A stretch of DNA of 64,000 nucleotides, taken from a phage. The stretch lies in assembly GCA_036253495.1 (NCBI GenBank), contig GCA_036253495.1_4125.1. One strand, given 5' to 3'. The position numbers were made by a program, and so were the translations under genes. Shown piece after piece: positions 3,247 through 56,285 of the stretch. Position 1 is the stretch's first letter, and the number at the start of each line of letters is the position of its first letter. A model generated the notes under the pieces. That model had not been told where the DNA came from. It made no database searches and was given only the letters and a program-made list of their open reading frames with translations.

Positions 3247-3648
3247 ATGGATCTTGATGATGTGTATAGCACCATAAGACAGATGGATTCGTATAAAAAA
3301 GTATATAGTGGTTACAAGAGTGATAAACAATTTTATGGAATCGGGGAGTATGATGTAATATCATTCGAATACGATGATACTGGTGAAAGTTCCATTAATA
3401 TTGTTTGTCCTCGTGACCGTGAAAATAACTTCATGTACGTTGAAATCAATAATGATGGTTTACACTTTACTAAAATATTAAATGGTGGCAAACAATCTAT
3501 TTCTCTGGATTTATCCGAAGAAGAAAAGTTCTTTCAAGAAGATACTATAATCAATCTAGGTTTTAGTTTATCAGAATACAAAGTTCTTCATAAAGATTTC
3601 ATGAAGTACTATAATGGGTTTCTTAAGGAGCTAACATTACATCTATGA
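3247..3648 (+). CDS. hypothetical protein
   Basis: ORF tightly packed with neighbours; 3' end overlaps the next start (ATGA). Confidence 0.5.
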   Translation: MDLDDVYSTIRQMDSYKKVYSGYKSDKQFYGIGEYDVISFEYDDTGESSINIVCPRDRENNFMYVEINNDGLHFTKILNGGKQSISLDLSEEEKFFQEDTIINLGFSLSEYKVLHKDFMKYYNGFLKELTLHL

Positions 3649-4886
3649 ATAATAACAAATTTCTTGAACAAACAATTGTGAAGCACTTAGCAGGTTCACA
3701 AGCGTATGGAACCAGTACACCTGAAAGTGATACGGATTATCGTGGTATTTTTCTTGCTAACAAAGAGTTCATTCTGACACCTTTTTATAATGTAAAAGAA
3801 GTTTCTGATTCAAGAGAAGAAGATACTAAATTCTATGAACTAAACCAGTACTTAAGACTATACACAGAGGCTAACCCAAATATCCTTGAATCACTATGGG
3901 TTGATCCTGAACACATCGTAGAAAGTACTGAAATCTATGATTATCTACGTACATTCAATCAACAATTACTTAGTTCTAAGATCGCATTCTCTTATACCGG
4001 TTATGCATATAATCAGGTTAAACGTATGTCCAATCACCACGGGTGGATGGATAAAGAGCGTATTGCTGAAAAACGTCTAAATGAAATCTTAGAAGATTTT
4101 CCTGTAGATGAAACTTTAGCATGGATGTATGAAAACTTCCCACACTATTTGGTAGAACGTTTAGATACTTCTAAACTACATCCATTTAATGCTAAGAAAA
4201 TAGATTTTGAAAAATACATGCGTGATACTTCATTGCAGTTAGTTTCGACTCATCCGTTGAAACAGTATCATTTTGTACGTTTAGTACATAATTACAGTAC
4301 TGATAAAGTACTAGACCGTGATTTCAACTTATTGGATTATAACAATGGGTACGAATTAATTCATTACGGTGAAAATATCTTTGGTGTTATTATCAATCCT
4401 AATGAAAGTACAATTAACGCTGATGGTTCTTTACGTTATTTCAACAAAGAACGCAGTACTGAAGAATTGAAAGTGCGACCTGAACTCATTGTTAAATTCA
4501 ATGAAAAAGAATACAGTGAGAACAGTGAGAACCGTAAAAGTTATCACAAATGGAAAGAGAATCGTAATGCTAAACGTGCAATTCTTGAATCCAAACACGG
4601 CTACGATTGCAAACATGCTATGCATACGATCAGACTTTTGAATACAGCCGAAGAAGCATTACAAAGCGGTATTATCCTTGTTAAACGTCCTGATGCTGAT
4701 ATGCTAATGGATATCCGCAACGGTAAATGGAAGTATGAAGAAGTCATGGATTATTTCAATGAAAAGGTTGACTATATCCGCAATGTGGTGTATCCTAAGT
4801 CAGTTCTACCAAAGAAACCAAACATTCAACTAGCTGCAAAAGTTCTAATCGATATTCGAGAAATGCAGTGGTATGGTAAAAAATAA
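3645..4886 (+). CDS. Pol-beta superfamily nucleotidyltransferase domain protein
   Basis: N-terminal G-S-x9-S-D-T-D motif (LAGSQAYGTSTPESDTDYRGIF), typical of the Pol-beta/MNT nucleotidyltransferase fold; 413 aa. Confidence 0.55.
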   Translation: MNNNKFLEQTIVKHLAGSQAYGTSTPESDTDYRGIFLANKEFILTPFYNVKEVSDSREEDTKFYELNQYLRLYTEANPNILESLWVDPEHIVESTEIYDYLRTFNQQLLSSKIAFSYTGYAYNQVKRMSNHHGWMDKERIAEKRLNEILEDFPVDETLAWMYENFPHYLVERLDTSKLHPFNAKKIDFEKYMRDTSLQLVSTHPLKQYHFVRLVHNYSTDKVLDRDFNLLDYNNGYELIHYGENIFGVIINPNESTINADGSLRYFNKERSTEELKVRPELIVKFNEKEYSENSENRKSYHKWKENRNAKRAILESKHGYDCKHAMHTIRLLNTAEEALQSGIILVKRPDADMLMDIRNGKWKYEEVMDYFNEKVDYIRNVVYPKSVLPKKPNIQLAAKVLIDIREMQWYGKK

Positions 4887-6665: not shown

Positions 6666-6677
6666 TATGTTATAATA

Positions 6678-6706
6678 GGGACTTGAGAAATCAAGTCCTT
6701 TTTTAA
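6678..6706 (+). terminator. rho-independent terminator
   Basis: gggacttga-gaaa-tcaagtcc hairpin followed by TTTTTT. Confidence 0.6.
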
Positions 6707-11728: not shown

Positions 11729-11742
11729 ACTAAGGATTGGTT

Positions 11743-12327
11743 ATGGGTAAACTTATTTTCTTTAGTGGGAGTATGTCATCAGGAAAGAGTACACATCTTT
11801 TACAGAACGCATATAACCACAAGAAGAACGGGATGAAAGTCATCTACTTAACGAGTGCATTAGATGATCGTTATGGTACTGGTAAAATAACATCGAGAAT
11901 CGGTATAGAATCTGAAGCTCAAGTTATTCCAAAAGATGACCTAAGCGTTATTCATGACGTAATAAAACTATTACAGGTTGACAATGATTATAATAGTATC
12001 TACGTTGATGAATGTCAGTTTTTAAATCGAAAACAAATTGATTTATTAGCCGATATTGCTGATGAGCATATGGTTGATGTATATTGTTATGGTATTAAAA
12101 CCGATTTTGAATCAAATACATTTGAAGGTTCTCAAAGGTTATTTGAAATAGCAGATGAGATCCATGAATTAAAGAACGTATGTGAAAATCAAAAGTGCGG
12201 AAGAAATGCTATAATGAATGCTCGCATCGTAGATAGTACTGATAAAGTGTTTATTGGTGGTGATGAATCATATAAGAGCCTGTGTAGAAAATGTTATAAA
12301 AACTATATGAGGAATAAAAATGGTTGA
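11743..12327 (+). CDS. tk: thymidine kinase
   Basis: P-loop FFSGSMSSGKST, IYVDECQF Walker B-like segment and C-terminal Cys zinc ribbon; ATG at 11743 after an AAGGA RBS. Confidence 0.85.
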   Translation: MGKLIFFSGSMSSGKSTHLLQNAYNHKKNGMKVIYLTSALDDRYGTGKITSRIGIESEAQVIPKDDLSVIHDVIKLLQVDNDYNSIYVDECQFLNRKQIDLLADIADEHMVDVYCYGIKTDFESNTFEGSQRLFEIADEIHELKNVCENQKCGRNAIMNARIVDSTDKVFIGGDESYKSLCRKCYKNYMRNKNG

Positions 12328-13631: not shown

Positions 13632-14042
13632 ATGATTGAAATGGAAGGAACTCTGGTGTATGATCCAGACCGTGGCACTATGAAAAAGAAGAAGGACTTC
13701 TGGTTAGTACTGCAACTTCCATTACAGTTGGTTAGATACTACCAGTACTTCATCAGAACTGATCTCCACATTGATGTTAAAGACCCACAATGGGGAGCAC
13801 ACGTCAGTATTGTTCGTGGTGAAGTGCCACCAAATCCAGAGTACTGGAAAAAGTACGATGGTCAAAAAATTAAAATAAAATTCAATCCTGATATTGTTCA
13901 AGTGAAAGATAAAAAGAAACCAGGCTCGTTCTTTATCATAGAGTTCGATGATGAATTCATTGGACACATTCGCAATGAACTAGGATTACAATCAAAGTAC
14001 TTACGTTATCACCTCACAGTAGGGAGAACGTACTACGACTAA
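13632..14042 (+). CDS. 2H phosphoesterase family protein (Acb1-like / LigT-like candidate)
   Basis: Two H-x-S/T motifs (AHVSIV and YHLTVG) about 70 residues apart in a 136-aa protein. Confidence 0.45.
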   Translation: MIEMEGTLVYDPDRGTMKKKKDFWLVLQLPLQLVRYYQYFIRTDLHIDVKDPQWGAHVSIVRGEVPPNPEYWKKYDGQKIKIKFNPDIVQVKDKKKPGSFFIIEFDDEFIGHIRNELGLQSKYLRYHLTVGRTYYD

Positions 14043-15260: not shown

Positions 15261-15893
15261 ATGCTATATAATATTGGTATTATGGACGTACCTGGTGATG
15301 GTAACATAAAATCTCCTGATAATAAAATATATAAAACATGGTGTTCAATCTTTGTTAGATGCTATTCGCCAATATCACTAAAAAAACGCCCAACGTATGA
15401 ATTAACCGAAGTATGTGATGAATGGAAACTATATTCAAACTTCAAAAAATGGTATATAAGTAATTATATAGAAGGTTACTTTCTTGATAAAGATATTATT
15501 GATGGTACTTCTAATATTTACTCACCATATACTTGCTCGTTTGTTCCAAACATTATAAATTGTTGTATTTTGGATGGGAATTCAAAAAACTCTAATCTAC
15601 CAATTGGTGTTCATTATAGACCGAAAGGGAAAGATATGGTCAACGAATTTTCGAATCCATATCAAGCAAGACTCTGGAAATATAAAAAACGTGTATCACT
15701 CGGATGTTATCCTACACCATATGATGCACATAAAGCGTGGCAATTTGGTAAGAAAGAATACTTATTAGAATTGATTAACGACTATAGTGATAAAGTTACC
15801 CCTGAAGTTGTTGTCGGTTTACAACGTAGAATTGATATACTAACCGATGATATAAAAAAATGTAGAATTACAAATTCAATCAGTAAAATATAG
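15261..15893 (+). CDS. hypothetical protein, possible AP2-like DNA-binding / homing-endonuclease-like
   Basis: GVHYRPKGK...YQARLW...LGCYPTPYDAHKAW resembles the AP2 domain pattern; no HNH catalytic motif seen. Confidence 0.4.
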   Translation: MLYNIGIMDVPGDGNIKSPDNKIYKTWCSIFVRCYSPISLKKRPTYELTEVCDEWKLYSNFKKWYISNYIEGYFLDKDIIDGTSNIYSPYTCSFVPNIINCCILDGNSKNSNLPIGVHYRPKGKDMVNEFSNPYQARLWKYKKRVSLGCYPTPYDAHKAWQFGKKEYLLELINDYSDKVTPEVVVGLQRRIDILTDDIKKCRITNSISKI

Positions 15894-15898
15894 AGAGG

Positions 15899-16237
15899 TT
15901 GTATATGCTAAATCTAGTTATTCAAGGTAATGTTGATATTACTCCAGCAATCCATGACGCAATTCATCAAGAAGCAAACACTCTAAATAAATTTAGTGAT
16001 TCTTCAGTACTGAATATTGGTGTTCATGTGAAAAAAGAGCATAAGACACAGTACGCAGTAACTTTAACATCAGGTGGTAAGTCTGTTACTGCCGATGATG
16101 CAGATTTATACAAGGCGATTGTCGATTCATTCGAAAAAATGGAAACTGTATTCAGTAAAGACAAAAGCATTAAATTGCACCGCCGAAACCATCCAGACCG
16201 TCCAGTTGTAGTTGATGTAACTGACGAAGAAGAGTAA
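15899..16237 (+). CDS. hypothetical protein
   Basis: ORF followed by a terminator. Confidence 0.5.
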   Translation: MYMLNLVIQGNVDITPAIHDAIHQEANTLNKFSDSSVLNIGVHVKKEHKTQYAVTLTSGGKSVTADDADLYKAIVDSFEKMETVFSKDKSIKLHRRNHPDRPVVVDVTDEEE

Positions 16238-17736: not shown

Positions 17737-17872
17737 TTGGAGGCTTTATGATTGCAATGTTAGAAGAAGATTGGGGTGTTTCTGAACAAGGAACCGACGA
17801 ATATCAAGTTCCAGAATACAAGCCAAAAGGCTTCTGGGAAAGTCTGCGTGATTGGTTGATGGGAGAATAAGA

Positions 17873-18985
17873 ATGAAAAAATACCTTGTTGGTGGATACT
17901 GCCGCGACCGTCTAATGGGCATTCGTGCAAAGGACAAAGATTATGTCATTGTTGGTGCAACTGAATCTGATATAAAATACTTAGAAAGTATTGGATATAA
18001 ACAGGTTGGTAAAGATTTTCCAGTTTATCTAAGCCCAGAAGGTAACGAACACGCATTAGCCCGTACTGAACGAAAAACTGGTACTGGATACGGTGGCTTC
18101 GAAGTGGATACAAAAGGTGTAACACTGGAACAAGATTTGTATCGTCGTGATCTTACAATTAATGCAATCGCGTATGATCCAGTACTGCAAATTCACATCG
18201 ACCCATACGGTGGTAAAGCTGATATCAAGAATAAAGTACTACGCCATGTATCCGAGCACTTCAAAGAAGATCCATTGCGTGTATTACGTCTAGCTCGCTT
18301 TGCTACGCGTTATTCTGATTTCTCTATACACGAGACTACTGAAGCACTTGCAATCGATATGGTAGCGTCTGGTGAGCTAAATCACCTTGTTCCAGACCGT
18401 GTTTATGTTGAATTTGAAAAGGCATTGTCAGAAGAGAAGCCAGCTAAGTTCCTTAAAACACTAAGTAAGTTGGGTTACTATGAAAAAGCATTTAATGCTA
18501 CATTAACCAAAAAGTCATTGGAACTCATTGATCATATCTCTGATAATTGTACTGAAGCATATAAGCCATATTTCTTATGGTCTGTGCTTCTTGAGAAAGA
18601 AGAAGTTGGCGAGGATTCAGTACTGAATGGTGCTATTAAAATGCCCGTTAAGTACGTTAAATTCAGTAATTACATCAAACGTTTCCGTGATGATATCAAG
18701 GCATTCCGTAAAAAGACCCCAAATGAAATGGGACAATTATTACTGGATATGAATATCAAGAATAACGGCGGTGAAGAATTCCTTTACAAAGTACTGGAAT
18801 ATTTTATTCTACGTAAAGAGATTGATTTAGACCTTGAAGATTTAATCATTAAGGTATATGATCGTTACACTGATGTAGTACTTCCAGATATTCAACAACT
18901 GGTAAAAGACGGTGAGTTAGAAGCATCTGAAATCCGTGATTTTGTTTCAGATTTACGTTGTGAAGCAATTCAACAAATGTTTTAA
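17873..18985 (+). CDS. tRNA nucleotidyltransferase (CCA-adding enzyme) / poly(A) polymerase head-domain family
   Basis: LVGGYCRDRLMG...DKDY head-domain motif and RRDLTINAIAYD; ATG at 17873 after GGGAGA. Confidence 0.75.
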   Translation: MKKYLVGGYCRDRLMGIRAKDKDYVIVGATESDIKYLESIGYKQVGKDFPVYLSPEGNEHALARTERKTGTGYGGFEVDTKGVTLEQDLYRRDLTINAIAYDPVLQIHIDPYGGKADIKNKVLRHVSEHFKEDPLRVLRLARFATRYSDFSIHETTEALAIDMVASGELNHLVPDRVYVEFEKALSEEKPAKFLKTLSKLGYYEKAFNATLTKKSLELIDHISDNCTEAYKPYFLWSVLLEKEEVGEDSVLNGAIKMPVKYVKFSNYIKRFRDDIKAFRKKTPNEMGQLLLDMNIKNNGGEEFLYKVLEYFILRKEIDLDLEDLIIKVYDRYTDVVLPDIQQLVKDGELEASEIRDFVSDLRCEAIQQMF

Positions 18986-19058: not shown

Positions 19059-19488
19059 ATGCGTTATAGTTGTGGCATTATATTTTATCGTGATGGTCAG
19101 ATACTTGTTGGACACACAACACGGACAGAAGCATTGGGATTTACCAAAAGGTAAAACCGAGGGCAATGAAACATTTGCTGAAGCTGCTGTTCGTGAGTGC
19201 TATGAAGAAACAGGATTTGAGATTGATGAAAAGGATCTTCTCTTATTAGGTGATGTATCATACAGGAAAGGGAAAAGATTAGTTTTATTTTTCTATACAG
19301 CTAAATACAAACCCGAACCGGATGAACTGAAGTGTAACAGTACTTATACCAATCGATATGGTAAAAGCCATCCAGAATTGGATAAATTCATGTACATTGA
19401 TGTTCAAGATTGTCAAAAGTATTTGACCGAACGAATGTGTAACAGTATAATTAAAGCTGTTAAATTGTTTCAAAAAAATAAAGGATAG
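19059..19488 (+). CDS. Nudix hydrolase, reading frame interrupted by an apparent 1-nt insertion near 19122
   Basis: Frame 0 from the ATG at 19059 gives MRYSCGIIFYRDGQILVGHTT... then stops at 19152; the Nudix box GKTEGNETFAEAAVRECYEETGFEI continues in the +1 frame. Confidence 0.55.
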
Positions 19489-19492
19489 TTAT

Positions 19493-19741
19493 ATGAAAGT
19501 GAAAATTTATGGTCGCACGACTGGTTGTAATTTCTGTGATACAGCAAAAGCAATTTGTGAGAACAATTCATTTGAAATGGATTTTATCGATGTGGTTTCT
19601 GAAGGTATTGATGGTGCTAAACTATCAGAAATTTGCGGTGAGCCAGTTCGTCAAGTTCCACAAATTTTCGTAAATGATGAGTATGTTCCTGGTGGATGTA
19701 CTGGTTTTGTTAACGGGCTAAAAGAAGGTCGCTGGAACTAA
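19493..19741 (+). CDS. nrdC: glutaredoxin/thioredoxin-like protein (T4 NrdC-like)
   Basis: 82 aa with an N-terminal C-N-F-C redox motif (GCNFCDTAK). Confidence 0.6.
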   Translation: MKVKIYGRTTGCNFCDTAKAICENNSFEMDFIDVVSEGIDGAKLSEICGEPVRQVPQIFVNDEYVPGGCTGFVNGLKEGRWN

Positions 19742-19980
19742 TGAATATCGATAAGGTATCATCACGAGCACGTGCATTGGCTGACAGTTTGGGAGTTAAA
19801 TTTGAAACTCCAGATATCAACCAATCAAAACAAAAAGCTCAAAAGAAAATTCATGAAATGAAAGAATACACATCAAGACGTGAAGAATACGATGCTGCTA
19901 TTTCTCACATTATTGAAGTGTTTAGTAAAGATGATATTTTAGCATTTATTGCTTCACATGAGGTTGTAAAAAACCCCTAA
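19741..19980 (+). CDS. hypothetical protein
   Basis: ORF with ATGA-type overlap to the upstream gene. Confidence 0.45.
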   Translation: MNIDKVSSRARALADSLGVKFETPDINQSKQKAQKKIHEMKEYTSRREEYDAAISHIIEVFSKDDILAFIASHEVVKNP

Positions 19981-20273: not shown

Positions 20274-20287
20274 CCTAATAATATAAA

Positions 20288-20317
20288 GGACTTGAGATTA
20301 TCGAGTCCTTTTCTTTT
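20288..20317 (+). terminator. rho-independent terminator
   Basis: ggacttgag-atta-tcgagtcc hairpin (one wobble) followed by a T-run. Confidence 0.5.
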
Positions 20318-20328
20318 CGGAGCACTAA

Positions 20329-20808
20329 ATGATACATGAACATAGCGGCAATCTGTTTGATTTATTCAGTACTGTTACTGATGATCAAACCGCGTTGCAT
20401 ATAATCGCTCATGGTTGTAATGCACAGGGTAAGATGGGTTCGGGTTTTGCAAAAGAATTAAGAAAGCGTCACCAATTGGCATATGATGTGTATCATACAC
20501 GTTATACCAATCAGAATGGTTTGAAATTGGGTGAAGTTGTCTATGCAGCACCAAATAATAACTTAATTATTGCAAACTGCATTACACAAGAGTATTATGG
20601 TAATGATGGTAAGAAGTATGTAAGTTATGATGCGATTGACCTTGCATTTAACTCGATGAATGAATTCATTAAAAATGAACCACAAGAGATCCATGTACAC
20701 TTCCCGAAAATTGGAGCCGATTTAGGCGGTGGTAACTGGAACGTTATCAAAGAAATCATTGACCACAGGCTGGTTAATGCTGAAAAACATTTATATATTC
20801 TCAAATAA
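20329..20808 (+). CDS. macro-domain-like protein (ADP-ribose binding/processing candidate)
   Basis: ALHIIAHGCNAQGKMGSGFA resembles the macro-domain AIVNAAN..L.GGGGV..AI loop, with a later Gly-rich FPKIGADLGGGNW segment. Confidence 0.4.
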   Translation: MIHEHSGNLFDLFSTVTDDQTALHIIAHGCNAQGKMGSGFAKELRKRHQLAYDVYHTRYTNQNGLKLGEVVYAAPNNNLIIANCITQEYYGNDGKKYVSYDAIDLAFNSMNEFIKNEPQEIHVHFPKIGADLGGGNWNVIKEIIDHRLVNAEKHLYILK

Positions 20809-21149: not shown

Positions 21150-21527
21150 ATGGCTGCTAATGAAGTGAAAGCAAAAACTATTCAAGCTATCGTAGTACTG
21201 AAAGGTAAAACCCCATCACCAAAAGAATTGGTTATGGCTGGCATGACTATGCTACATCAGTACAACCCAGCATCCCCTAACTATGTTCAAGAATATGAAG
21301 CCAAACAGTTTAAAGCTCATTGGGATTCATGGATTAAAGACAATGAACTGGAACAAGTTGTCTATGAAGCAGATGACATGGATGAAATGATGCAGATTGA
21401 ATATCTTGCGAATCAGCAGTCAGTACCACTAAGTATGTTTGGTAATGGGGAAGAGGTTCTAGTACTCGGCCCCTTCACTAAAAAAGATATTGAACACATT
21501 GTCACTAACTGTACAAAGATAAGTTAA
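21150..21527 (+). CDS. hypothetical protein
   Basis: ORF; no motif recognised. Confidence 0.5.
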   Translation: MAANEVKAKTIQAIVVLKGKTPSPKELVMAGMTMLHQYNPASPNYVQEYEAKQFKAHWDSWIKDNELEQVVYEADDMDEMMQIEYLANQQSVPLSMFGNGEEVLVLGPFTKKDIEHIVTNCTKIS

Positions 21528-38815: not shown

Positions 38816-39113
38816 AGTTACTAGAGAAGATATCATTCTCAAAATAACTGAAGAAAGACAGAAACAAATAGATAATCCAAATACATTATCTGATACACTT
38901 AAAACAAAGAATGATTGGGCTTCCTTATGTGCCTATTATCTCTTCGAAGGGGCAACTCGCCCCGATAAGCATGTATCATTCGATGAATTTAGAGAGTCCT
39001 TAATCAAAGCTGGTGCTGTCATTTTGGCAGCCCTTGAAACCAGTTTCGCATTAGAGGATGAGAAATTACAAGAATTAATGTCTGCTTTGGAACATAAGAA
39101 TGACGATAAATGA
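38808..39113 (+). CDS. hypothetical protein
   Basis: ATG at 38808 overlaps the upstream stop; the listed ORF starts at an upstream alternative codon. Confidence 0.45.
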   Translation: MAKVTREDIILKITEERQKQIDNPNTLSDTLKTKNDWASLCAYYLFEGATRPDKHVSFDEFRESLIKAGAVILAALETSFALEDEKLQELMSALEHKNDDK

Positions 39114-39690
39114 ACTTGATGAAGCAATCAAGGGATTAACTAATACATTTTATAGCGGTGGTGCACAAGGTGCAGACCGCTTTTTCACTTTATATGCTAT
39201 GGAAAATGGTTTTAATGTAATTAACTTTTCATTCAAAAATCATAATCATAGTGTTGATGAAAGTACTATATTAGAAATCCCATCTTATATTTTGAATGAT
39301 AGTTCTATTCTACATCAACTAAACATGGCATGTTATTCATTACAACGCCGTGTACCTAAACCTGGCTCGTATGTTTATAATCTATTAGCTCGTAATAGAT
39401 ATCAAATTTTAAACACAGAGAGAGTTTATTGTATGGCATCACTGGTTTCACCTACTCAAGTTAGTGGTGGTACTGCATGGGCTGTACAAATGTATATTGA
39501 CAGTACTGATAATCCTGAAATATACTGCTATGACATTAATGACAGAAAAGTATATTCATATAATCCAGTACTAAAAGAATTCGAAGAAACCGCATCAGTA
39601 CCTAAGCCACATGGAAATTGGACGGGAATAGGCTCAAGAAATGCACAAGAAAAGCATATGATGCACTTTACAACATTTTTTCAAGGATGA
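39100..39690 (+). CDS. Rossmann-like SLOG/DprA-like domain protein (function unknown)
   Basis: FYSGGAQGADRF resembles the Gly-rich GGxxGxD loop of DprA/SLOG-type Rossmann folds; weak call. Confidence 0.3.
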   Translation: MTINELDEAIKGLTNTFYSGGAQGADRFFTLYAMENGFNVINFSFKNHNHSVDESTILEIPSYILNDSSILHQLNMACYSLQRRVPKPGSYVYNLLARNRYQILNTERVYCMASLVSPTQVSGGTAWAVQMYIDSTDNPEIYCYDINDRKVYSYNPVLKEFEETASVPKPHGNWTGIGSRNAQEKHMMHFTTFFQG

Positions 39691-55799: not shown

Positions 55800-55821
55800 A
55801 GGAGCCATTGGCTCCTTTTTT
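55800..55821. terminator. bidirectional rho-independent terminator
   Basis: ggagcc-att-ggctcc hairpin followed by TTTTTTT; near-identical core to the terminator at 61534. Confidence 0.6.
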
Positions 55822-56285
55822 TAATATCTATATGGTAGACTATTGACAAATTGTGTACCAGCGTTTATACTTTCCCATAAAGAATAAAAATCTTTCATCA
55901 AATTAACATTTAATAATGTATTTTTAGCTCCAGGGTGAAGAGGTTTAGGCCATGAGCCAATTTTAACCCAAGCATATCCAGAGCTTTCCTTATTGAGAAT
56001 AGGAACAAACTCATTTTCAACAACAACAACGAAAGAATAATATTTGAACTTACCATTCTTAGTACAAAATACATCAAAGGGTATAATATCAATTATATCA
56101 GGTAACGAATCTCCCAATTCTTCTCGTATTTCACGATGCAAAGCTTGCAAAGGGGATTCGTTGTATTCGAGTTTTCCACCAACAAAAGCCCAGTTGTTTG
56201 AATAGGTACTGCTTTCAGATCTAAGATTGAGCATCATATGACCAGTACTTTTAGATAAAAATATTGCTCCTACTGCCTCATTCAT
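55821..56285 (-). CDS. Nudix hydrolase
   Basis: Nudix box GGKLEYNESPLQALHREIREELGD. Confidence 0.65.
   Translation of the reverse strand: MNEAVGAIFLSKSTGHMMLNLRSESSTYSNNWAFVGGKLEYNESPLQALHREIREELGDSLPDIIDIIPFDVFCTKNGKFKYYSFVVVVENEFVPILNKESSGYAWVKIGSWPKPLHPGAKNTLLNVNLMKDFYSLWESINAGTQFVNSLPYRY

What the first reader, a model, noticed from the sequence alone, without database searches (positions are those of the whole stretch)
20329..20808. Macro-domain-like protein in the early region
The HGCNAQGKMGSGFA loop and a later Gly-rich segment resemble the ADP-ribose-binding macro fold. Together with the Nudix genes and the 2H phosphoesterase this suggests a set of genes handling ADP-ribose or nucleotide signals, possibly countering ADP-ribosylation-based or NAD-depleting host defences.
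Basis: partly seen in the sequence, partly recalled or inferred. Interest (0 to 1): 0.4.

Follow-up and report, generated by a model that had tools for sequence, protein, structure and literature searches.

The report
Phage macrodomain, likely anti-DarT ADP-ribose remover
This gene of a giant E. coli phage encodes an ordinary, already-annotated macrodomain enzyme that most likely strips ADP-ribose off phage DNA to defeat the bacterial DarTG defence, as its relatives in phages T4 and PhiKZ were recently shown to do.

Summary
ORF 20329..20808 (+) encodes a 159-aa single-domain macrodomain. The AlphaFold2 model has pLDDT 94.9. Foldseek gives TM 0.83 to BT1257, followed by Poa1p, SCO6735, DarG and TARG1.

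The window comes from an Asteriusvirus jumbo phage (97% identical to Escherichia phage A4). There the same gene is already annotated "macro domain-containing protein".

The protein belongs to the ALC1/TARG1-like class. It has the "Gln-type" active site of SCO6735, BT1257 and T4 Tk.4: HGCN, NxxTQ and PKIGA-LGGGNW. SCO6735 hydrolyses thymidine-linked ADP-ribose on DNA. T4 Tk.4 (AdfM) and PhiKZ gp104 (AdfM) protect their phages from DarTG2.

The best reading is therefore an AdfM-like anti-DarT2 DNA de-ADP-ribosylase. This is inferred, not shown.

One deviation stands out. The phosphate-loop glycine whose Gly-to-Glu mutation cripples SCO6735 is Asp131 here, and this is specific to the jumbo-phage clade.

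The Nudix genes and a 2H (Swiss-Army-Knife type) gene exist. They are not in an operon with the macro gene, and no functional link is shown. "Early region" cannot be verified.

Verdict: ordinary, a new member of a known family, low interest.

The parts
20285..20318 (+). Hairpin (11-bp stem, 5-nt loop) followed by a T-run. It is an intrinsic-terminator-like element directly upstream of the macro gene's ribosome-binding site.
   Evidence: Terminator scan. It is conserved in phages A4 and 121Q, and in 121Q the stem keeps pairing through compensatory changes. A hairpin with the same stem sequence lies at 6677..6700.
20319..20322 (+). Ribosome-binding site GGAG, 6 nt before the ATG.
   Evidence: Read directly from the sequence. 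Invariant in A4 and 121Q.
20329..20808 (+). Coding sequence of a 159-aa single-domain macrodomain protein. It belongs to the ALC1/TARG1-like class, Gln-type subclass, and is AdfM/SCO6735-like.
20410..20448 (+). Loop 1 (residues 28-40, HGCNAQGKMGSGF). It contains His28 and Asn31, which match SCO6735 His24 and Asn27, and the G-x-G that lines the ADP-ribose cleft.
   Evidence: Alignments to SCO6735 and BT1257. H28 and N31 are nearly invariant in 263 homologs. The roles of these residues are taken from PMC9411070.
20587..20589 (+). Codon for Gln87. This is the position of the catalytic Lys of DarG (K80), TARG1 (K84) and PhiKZ AdfM (K78), and of the essential Gln85 of SCO6735.
   Evidence: Profile alignment to DarG and multiple alignment A3. 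Gln is present in 263 of 263 homologs. The SCO6735 Q85A mutant is inactive (PMC9411070).
20704..20739 (+). Phosphate-binding loop (residues 126-137, PKIGADLGGGNW). Asp131 (codon 20719..20721) occupies the position of SCO6735 Gly128 and TARG1 Gly123.
   Evidence: The SCO6735 G128E mutant loses most of its activity (PMC9411070).

Best explanation
The gene encodes a small, free-standing macrodomain hydrolase of the ALC1/TARG1-like class. It binds the ADP-ribose moiety in a cleft formed by loop 1 (HGCN...MGSG), a mobile loop that starts at Gln87, and the phosphate-binding loop (PKIGADLGGGNW). By analogy with SCO6735, Asn31 locks Gln87 in place. Gln87 then positions the distal ribose so that a water-mediated reaction cleaves the N-glycosidic bond between ADP-ribose and a thymine base, releasing free ADP-ribose and restoring the base. 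In an infected cell that carries a DarTG2 toxin-antitoxin defence system, the protein would remove the ADP-ribose that DarT2 puts on single-stranded phage DNA, so that replication and packaging can go on. That makes it an AdfM-type anti-defence factor. Shown here: the fold, the class, the active-site signature, and homology to T4 AdfM. Inferred: catalytic activity, DNA as the substrate, and the anti-DarT2 role.
For: Fold: the AlphaFold2 model has pLDDT 94.9 and pTM 0.90. Foldseek top hits are BT1257 (TM 0.83), Poa1p, SCO6735, T. aquaticus and M. tuberculosis DarG, and TARG1, all at probability 1.00. The top viral hits are phage macro proteins, including tk.4 of Acinetobacter phage 133 at TM 0.84.

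Sequence: phmmer gives BT1257 1.4e-15 and SCO6735 2.3e-10. The family profile gives BT1257 2.9e-26, SCO6735 3.5e-19 and DarG 2.4e-14.

Defence and annotation libraries: the only PADLOC hit is DarG at 35.4 bits, nearly the same as T4 Tk.4's 36.0 bits. The only NCBIfam hit is antitoxin_DarG. PHROG 335 is the best family for this protein, for T4 Tk.4 and for PhiKZ gp104.

Active site: it shares HGCN, MGSG, NxxTQ and P[KR]IGA-G-GNW with T4 Tk.4. Gln87 is invariant in 263 homologs.

Function of relatives: SCO6735, which has Gln85 in place of the Lys, hydrolyses DarT-made thymidine-ADP-ribose DNA faster than DarG does and rescues DarT toxicity (PMC9411070). A T4 tk.4 knockout becomes sensitive to DarTG2 (10.1101/2025.11.20.689424). 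PhiKZ gp104 removes DarT2 marks from DNA in vitro and in vivo (PMC13309987). The host genus, Escherichia, carries the DarTG systems used in those T4 experiments.
Against: There is no experiment on this protein or on any Asteriusvirus homolog. Identity to T4 Tk.4 is only about 30% and the two genes are not syntenic. Asp131 sits where the Gly-to-Glu mutation of SCO6735 (G128E) strongly reduces activity, supposedly by repelling DNA. That could mean a weaker or a different substrate. The SCO6735 DNA-positioning lysines K34 and K89 align with Ser38 and Gly91. Macrodomains of this class are promiscuous, acting on protein-Glu-ADPr, U-ADPr RNA and O-acetyl-ADPr. The Iyer et al. survey argued that phage macro domains mostly act on small ADP-ribose derivatives (PMC9503650). 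The neighbours are RNA and translation genes rather than DNA-replication genes.
Confidence: 0.5

Rival explanations
1. It processes small ADP-ribose metabolites. It would be a Poa1p-like ADP-ribose-1''-phosphate phosphatase or an O-acetyl-ADP-ribose deacetylase that clears by-products of NAD-dependent RNA repair (the Tpt1/KptA plus 2H pathway) run by the phage.
For: Poa1p, the yeast Appr-1''-p phosphatase, is among the top structural and sequence matches. GenBank and PHROG call the family 'phosphatase' or 'Appr-1-p processing'. The window carries RNA-repair and tRNA genes: 2H-SAK (13632..14042), RlaP nucleotidyltransferase (3645..4883), a CCA-adding enzyme (17852..18985), a PTH2-like ORF and HPF. 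Iyer et al. favour small-molecule substrates for phage macro domains.
Against: No KptA/Tpt1 or other ADP-ribosyltransferase was found among the 55 window ORFs scanned with Pfam. Of the three Poa1p residues probed by the deposited mutants, only His23 is kept (H28). S30 aligns with K35 and F152 aligns with G133. Similarity is clearly higher to BT1257 and SCO6735 than to Poa1p (95 and 72 bits against 57 bits). The 2H gene is 6.3 kb away and not co-transcribed in any obvious way. The closest characterised phage homolog has a DarTG2 phenotype.
Confidence: 0.2
2. It is a de-ADP-ribosylase for protein or RNA targets. It would reverse marks laid by other host toxin ARTs or balance the phage's own ADP-ribosyltransferases, rather than act on DarT2-modified DNA.
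For: SCO6735 and TARG1 also remove Glu-linked protein ADP-ribose and uracil-linked RNA ADP-ribose. A negatively charged Asp131 in the phosphate loop would be less unfavourable for a protein substrate than for DNA; this is an inference from the G128E rationale. The genomic neighbours are RNA and translation genes.
Against: No ART gene was seen in the window. No such target is known for any phage member of this family. The only phenotypes reported for phage homologs concern DarTG2.
Confidence: 0.17
3. It is a non-catalytic or weakly catalytic ADP-ribose binder. It would sequester ADP-ribose-derived immune signals (Thoeris gcADPR or His-ADPR), or block DarT by direct binding.
For: Asp131 replaces a glycine whose mutation to Glu is the classic binding or activity knock-out in this class. 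Catalytically dead SCO6735 still inhibits DarT by interaction. Macro domains are used as His-ADPR sensors in type II Thoeris.
Against: The catalytic signature (H28, N31, Q87) is under strict conservation: Q87 is present in 263 of 263 homologs. That is expected for an enzyme. PhiKZ AdfM is active with Ala at the equivalent position, so the glycine is not obligatory. Every non-Gly variant at position 131 keeps Gly at 133, which suggests compensation rather than decay. No phage macro sponge is known.
Confidence: 0.08

Closest known systems
T4 Tk.4 = AdfM (anti-DarT factor macro), phage T4
   Same: Both are free-standing phage macrodomains of about 155-159 aa. Both have PHROG 335 as best family and DarG as the only PADLOC hit, with equal scores. 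They share the signature HGCN, MGSG, NxxTQ and P[KR]IGA-G-GNW, with Gln at the catalytic-Lys position. BT1257 is the best PDB match for both.
   Different: Identity is only about 29-32%. T4 keeps Gly where this protein has Asp131. T4's loop after the Gln is 4 residues shorter. The genomic neighbourhoods differ: T4 tk.4 lies between vs and tk.3. The anti-DarTG2 role is shown genetically for T4 only.
SCO6735 (Streptomyces coelicolor) and BT1257 (Bacteroides thetaiotaomicron): Gln-type subclass of ALC1-like macrodomains
   Same: These are the best solved-structure matches by sequence and by fold. His, Asn and Gln are conserved: SCO6735 H24, N27 and Q85 match H28, N31 and Q87. The loop after the Gln is long, 12 residues against 13-14.
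   Different: They are cellular proteins, and SCO6735 is DNA-damage inducible. G128 aligns with D131, K34 with S38 and K89 with G91. Thymidine-ADPr DNA hydrolysis is demonstrated only for SCO6735.
PhiKZ gp104 = AdfM (chimallivirus) and the DarG antitoxin macrodomain
   Same: They share the macro fold and class and the same PHROG. PhiKZ gp104 is also encoded by a jumbo phage.
   Different: They use a catalytic Lys (K78 in PhiKZ gp104, K80 in DarG) where this protein has Gln87. DarG also has a C-terminal DarT-binding domain and an adjacent darT gene, both absent here. Identity is only 15-19%.
Poa1p (yeast ADP-ribose-1''-phosphate phosphatase)
   Same: It is a homologous macro fold, with TM 0.73-0.77 and profile E=1.8e-14. 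The HxCN motif is shared.
   Different: Poa1p has Ser at the Gln87 position. Poa1p S30 and F152 are not conserved here. Poa1p also carries a large insertion before the phosphate loop.

Membership tests
Macro domain superfamily (Pfam PF01661 clan) | Three-layer alpha/beta/alpha macro fold | tested here: met
   The AlphaFold2 model has pLDDT 94.9. Foldseek probability is 1.00 and TM reaches 0.83-0.85 to solved and predicted macrodomains. The top 30 PDB hits and the top 24 viral hits contain no other fold.
Macro domain superfamily (Pfam PF01661 clan) | Score above the curated Pfam threshold for PF01661 | tested here: not met
   The score is 17.8 bits against a cut-off of 22 (E=0.0032), although the match covers the full model length, positions 2-116 of 118. 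Many homologs 45-69% identical do carry PF01661. This therefore reflects model sensitivity and is not evidence against membership.
Macro domain superfamily (Pfam PF01661 clan) | Binding of ADP-ribose | not testable with these tools
   This needs ITC, a thermal-shift assay or a co-crystal structure.
ALC1/TARG1-like class, SCO6735/BT1257 (Gln-type) subclass | Gln at the position of the DarG/TARG1 catalytic Lys, held in place by a conserved Asn in loop 1 | tested here: met
   Q87 and N31 align with SCO6735 Q85 and N27. Q87 is present in 263 of 263 homologs and N31 in 261 of 263 (one other residue, one gap).
ALC1/TARG1-like class, SCO6735/BT1257 (Gln-type) subclass | Extended 'mobile loop' after the Gln, about 5 residues longer than in DarG and TARG1 | tested here: inconclusive
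   There are 12 residues between Q87 and Y100. The same stretch has 13-14 residues in SCO6735 and BT1257, 8 in TARG1 and T4 Tk.4, and 12 in DarG in the MAFFT alignment. The loop length is intermediate, and a structure-based alignment could not be run.
ALC1/TARG1-like class, SCO6735/BT1257 (Gln-type) subclass | Conserved Gly-x-Gly in the phosphate-binding loop (SCO6735 G126 and G128; G128E is inactivating) | tested here: not met
   G129 is kept, but the second Gly is Asp131. The column is Gly in 129 of 143 distant representatives and Asp in 44 of the 77 homologs at least 50% identical to this protein. Active PhiKZ AdfM has Ala at this position.
ALC1/TARG1-like class, SCO6735/BT1257 (Gln-type) subclass | Hydrolysis of thymidine-linked ADP-ribose on single-stranded DNA | not testable with these tools
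   This requires an enzyme assay.
AdfM (phage anti-DarT factor, macro) | Phage-encoded stand-alone macrodomain homologous to T4 Tk.4 or PhiKZ gp104 | tested here: met
   BLASTP against T4 Tk.4 gives 32% identity and E=9e-14 in the pairwise comparison. tblastn gives 3e-6 against the whole phage collection. All three proteins have the same best PHROG.
AdfM (phage anti-DarT factor, macro) | Protection of the phage from DarTG2, or rescue of DarT2 toxicity | not testable with these tools
   No report on an Asteriusvirus was found. The only paper that mentions both Asteriusvirus and DarTG does not discuss the macro gene.
DarG antitoxin (NCBIfam NF048014) | Full-length architecture (macro domain plus C-terminal DarT-binding domain), score above cut-off, adjacent darT gene, and catalytic Lys | tested here: not met
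   The score is 26.8 bits against a cut-off of 250, and only the macro part of the model (positions 19-139 of 338) is matched. The protein has 159 aa and a single domain. The neighbouring genes are not DarT. Gln87 replaces the Lys.
Poa1p-like ADP-ribose-1''-phosphate phosphatase | Poa1p residues probed by the deposited mutants (H23, S30, F152), and co-occurrence with a Tpt1/KptA pathway | tested here: inconclusive
   H23 matches H28 and is kept. S30 aligns with K35 and F152 with G133, so neither is kept. No Tpt1/KptA was found among the 55 window ORFs scanned. The rest of the roughly 350-kb genome was not examined.

The most novel reading that the evidence does not exclude
The jumbo-phage clade that includes this protein has replaced the 'untouchable' phosphate-loop glycine (SCO6735 G128, TARG1 G123) with Asp, always together with a following LGGG. 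This may mark a change of substrate or of mechanism within the TARG1/DarG class. Examples would be an Asp-assisted catalytic solution, or a preference for a non-DNA ADP-ribosylated target or an ADP-ribose-derived immune signal. In that case these phages would counter a defence other than DarTG2.
Probability: 0.12. Interest if true: 0.45.

Novelty: new member of a known kind. Interest (0 to 1): 0.2.

Why it matters
If the assignment holds, Asteriusvirus jumbo phages, some of which are considered for therapy against E. coli and Klebsiella, carry a built-in counter to DarTG2 toxin-antitoxin defence. That helps predict host range. The assignment also extends the 'Gln-type' thymidine-ADP-ribose hydrolases from Streptomyces and T4 to a very large phage family: about 10,000 clusters at 50% identity at E<=1e-10. 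By itself the finding is a routine annotation. About 56% of jumbo phages encode a macro domain (PMC9503650), and the gene is already labelled as such in GenBank.

Tried and rejected
1. Pfam alone would have left the call ambiguous: Macro scores 17.8 bits, below threshold, with a spurious Peptidase_M16_C hit of similar strength. Structure and profile searches settled it.

2. DarG membership is rejected: the score is far below cut-off, there is no C-terminal domain, no darT neighbour and no catalytic Lys.

3. I looked for DarT association in the genomic context of a distant homolog (P0118, on a 428-kb contig). It is a stand-alone gene among unrelated genes, which is uninformative.

4. I tried to show that the Asp131 variants form one clade with a quick neighbour-joining tree. 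The last common ancestor of the Asp/Glu variants spans 114 of 119 sequences, so the tree is uninformative. Only the correlation with identity to the window protein stands.

5. The motif AAGGACTTGA flanking the gene looked like a possible promoter. It is the stem of terminator-type hairpins (20285, 6677), and the third exact copy (20814) overlaps the next gene's ribosome-binding region.

6. The sigma-70 promoter scan gave no enrichment over shuffles (22 found, 23.7 expected), so expression timing cannot be inferred.

7. Direct Pfam detection of the 2H gene failed even at E<=10. The gene was recovered only through its homologs.

8. The plasmid search found only distant cellular homologs, some of them fused to or annotated as SLOG. 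It was not pursued.

Full report
OBSERVATION. A GGAG ribosome-binding site lies 6 nt upstream. The quoted loop HGCNAQGKMGSGFA is residues 28-41. The 'later Gly-rich segment' is PKIGADLGGGNW, residues 126-137.

ORIGIN OF THE WINDOW. A 5-kb stretch around the gene is 97% identical to Escherichia phage A4 and about 82-84% identical to 121Q and many other Asteriusvirus jumbo phages of 350-385 kb. In A4 (A4_541) and in RefSeq 121Q (gp544) the same gene is already annotated 'macro domain-containing protein' or 'Appr-1-p processing domain protein'. Other records call it 'phosphatase'. The macro call is therefore not new.

IS IT A MACRO DOMAIN? Pfam's Macro model matches end to end but below threshold (17.8 bits against 22). 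All other evidence is decisive.
- PHROG 335 matches at E=1.8e-45.
- phmmer against PDB sequences gives BT1257 (2FG1/2AFC) at 1.4e-15, the S. coelicolor macrodomain SCO6735 (5E3B) at 2.3e-10, and yeast Poa1p at 5e-4.
- A profile of 48 homologs (A1) gives BT1257 2.9e-26, SCO6735 3.5e-19, Poa1p 1.8e-14, T. aquaticus DarG 2.4e-14, M. tuberculosis DarG 3e-13 and TARG1 4e-10.
- The AlphaFold2 model built on that alignment has pLDDT 94.9 and pTM 0.90.
- Foldseek against the PDB returns BT1257 (TM 0.83), Poa1p, SCO6735, DarG and TARG1, then the coronavirus and alphavirus macrodomains, all at probability 1.00.
- Foldseek against predicted viral structures returns phage macro proteins, including tk.4 of Acinetobacter phage 133 (TM 0.84).

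WHICH KIND OF MACRO DOMAIN? The matches place the protein in the ALC1/TARG1-like class. In the profile alignment to DarG, the family's 'NaiTQ' lies over DarG's 'NFPTK', so Gln87 occupies the position of the catalytic Lys. A 12-sequence alignment (A3) shows a clean split at this position.
- Gln: this protein and its homologs, T4 Tk.4, BT1257 and SCO6735.
- Lys: DarG (K80), PhiKZ gp104 (K78) and TARG1 (K84). I verified my recalled TARG1 sequence against the PDB at 100% identity.
- Ser: Poa1p.
Gln87 is present in 263 of 263 homologs examined, and His28 and Asn31 in nearly all of them. The family signature HGCN...MGSG...NxxTQ...P[KR]IGA-LGGGNW is shared with T4 Tk.4.

WHAT THE RELATIVES DO (literature).
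- SCO6735 lacks the TARG1 Lys/Asp dyad. Its Gln85 is essential, Asn27 locks Gln85 in position, Lys34 and Lys89 position the DNA, and G128E strongly reduces activity. The enzyme removes DarT-made ADP-ribose from thymidine in single-stranded DNA faster than DarG or TARG1. It also rescues DarT toxicity in E. coli and in S. coelicolor (PMC9411070).
- SCO6735, DarG and TARG1 also reverse uracil-linked RNA ADP-ribosylation (PMC13036486). They prefer oligonucleotide substrates (PMC12879935).
- In T4, a transposon screen found tk.4 as the single gene needed on a DarTG2 host. A clean knockout is DarTG2-sensitive, and the gene was named adfM (bioRxiv 10.1101/2025.11.20.689424).
- Independently, PhiKZ gp104, also named AdfM, removes DarT2 marks from DNA in vitro and protects chimalliviruses from DarTG2 (PMC13309987).
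- The window protein, T4 Tk.4 and PhiKZ gp104 all have PHROG 335 as their best family.
- In PADLOC, DarG is the only hit for both the window protein (35.4 bits) and T4 Tk.4 (36.0 bits).
- The only NCBIfam hit is antitoxin_DarG. It covers the macro part only and lies far below cut-off.

MOST LIKELY MECHANISM. The protein is an AdfM-like enzyme. It binds the ADP-ribose on DarT2-modified thymines of single-stranded phage DNA. It then hydrolyses the N-glycosidic bond by the SCO6735-type Gln-assisted, water-mediated route, which restores replication and packaging. The fold, class, signature residues and homology are shown here. The activity, the substrate and the biological role are inferred. I put this at about 0.5.

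A DEVIATION WORTH RECORDING. Mapping the SCO6735 residues through the alignments gives the following.
- H24 matches H28, N27 matches N31, Q85 matches Q87, and G126 matches G129.
- K34 aligns with S38 and K89 aligns with G91, although K35, K95 and K96 are nearby.
- G128 aligns with Asp131. This is the glycine whose Gly-to-Glu change is the standard knock-out in SCO6735.
Among 143 distant family representatives this column is Gly in 129 and Asp in 3. Among the 77 homologs at least 50% identical to the window protein it is Asp in 44, Gly in 21, Ala in 7, Glu in 3 and Tyr in 1. Every non-Gly variant keeps Gly at position 133, whereas the Gly-131 proteins have Gly or Ala there. Active PhiKZ AdfM has Ala at the equivalent position. 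I read this as a tolerated, probably compensated, clade-specific change. A shift of substrate or mechanism is not excluded, and this is the 'novel case'. The coordinates of the model could not be inspected, so the orientation of Asp131 is unknown.

The macro gene lies in a long co-directional block.
- Upstream: RlaP RNA-repair nucleotidyltransferase (3645..4883), thymidine kinase (11737..12327), a small 2H phosphoesterase (13632..14042), lysozyme, an HNH endonuclease, HPF (15899..16237), a CCA-adding enzyme (17852..18985), Nudix (19072..19488), glutaredoxin (19493..19741) and two small ORFs.
- Downstream: two small ORFs, a weak PTH2-like ORF (21150..21527), and then the neck and tail genes.
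- The 2H gene has the motifs GAHVSIVRG and RYHLTVGR. It gives no Pfam hit itself, but its 87%- and 58%-identical homologs hit PF22547 (2H-SAK) at 26.8 and 35.6 bits against a cut-off of 27.
- A second Nudix gene (55821..56285, - strand) sits inside the tail module.
- No Tpt1/KptA, ART or NADAR gene was found among the 55 ORFs scanned.
- A hairpin plus T-run (20285..20318) lies immediately before the macro gene's ribosome-binding site. It is conserved in 121Q with compensatory stem changes. The macro gene is thus at least partly insulated from the Nudix/glutaredoxin unit.
- Promoter-like sites are no more frequent than in shuffled sequence.
'Early region' therefore cannot be confirmed. For comparison, PhiKZ AdfM is reported to be expressed late. 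The idea of a coordinated ADP-ribose-handling gene set remains a hypothesis. Its best form is the RNA-repair rival, in which a macro domain clears Appr-1''-p. I rate that at about 0.2.

HOW COMMON IS IT? tblastn finds homologs in 2,021 of 50,697 phage records. These include T-even phages, KVP40, Felix O1-like and rV5-like phages, PaP1-like Pseudomonas phages and others. The exhaustive profile search finds 17,984 cluster representatives at E<=1e-3 and 9,969 at E<=1e-10. A published survey reports macro domains in 56% of jumbo phages (PMC9503650). No paper on an Asteriusvirus discusses this gene in relation to DarTG.

VERDICT. The protein is a typical, already-annotated member of a very large phage macrodomain family whose characterised members are DarT2 antagonists. 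Its novelty is that of a new, untested member of a known kind, with one clade-specific active-site-loop substitution that deserves a mutational test. Interest is low, at 0.2.

Noticed in passing
window 20285..20318 (+), and 6677..6700: A terminator-type hairpin with the stem AAAGGACT.../...AGTCCTTT followed by a T-run lies directly upstream of the macro gene. It is conserved in 121Q with compensatory stem changes. A second hairpin with the same stem sequence lies at 6677..6700, which suggests a reused terminator family in this phage.
   Followed up: partly
window 13632..14042 (+): A 136-aa ORF has two HxS/T motifs (GAHVSIVRG and RYHLTVGR). It gives no Pfam hit, even at E<=10, but its homologs carry PF22547 (Swiss-Army-Knife 2H phosphoesterase). 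This minimal 2H enzyme is annotated 'hypothetical' in A4 and 121Q.
   Followed up: partly
window 3645..4883 (+): A 413-aa protein has an RlaP domain (PF10127, 'RNA repair pathway DNA polymerase beta family', E=1.8e-16). Together with the 2H-SAK gene, the CCA-adding enzyme (17852..18985), HPF (15899..16237) and a weak PTH2-like ORF (21150..21527), it points to an RNA or tRNA repair and translation-maintenance theme in this part of the genome.
   Followed up: partly
window 15261..15893 (+): An HNH endonuclease ORF (PHROG 953, E=6e-59) sits between the lysozyme gene and the HPF gene. In phages A4 and 121Q those two genes are adjacent. This looks like a homing-endonuclease insertion specific to this phage.
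   Followed up: partly
window 39100..39687 (+): A 196-aa ORF next to thymidylate synthase has a weak, sub-threshold hit to a SLOG family (PF10686 YAcAr, E=7.5e-4, 19.7 bits against a cut-off of 28.2). SLOG domains are linked to NAD and ADP-ribose biology, and some cellular homologs of the macro protein on Bacillus plasmids are annotated as SLOG family proteins.
   Followed up: no
window 55821..56285 (-): A second Nudix hydrolase gene (154 aa) is embedded in the tail and baseplate structural module, on the opposite strand from the macro gene. It may be a virion-associated or late-expressed Nudix.
   Followed up: no
window 19741..19980 (+): In the A4 record the 'glutaredoxin' label is on the 240-bp CDS that corresponds to ORF 19741..19980, which has only a weak Grx hit. 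The true glutaredoxin (19493..19741, PF00462 E=4e-9) is labelled hypothetical there. 121Q annotates them the right way round.
   Followed up: partly
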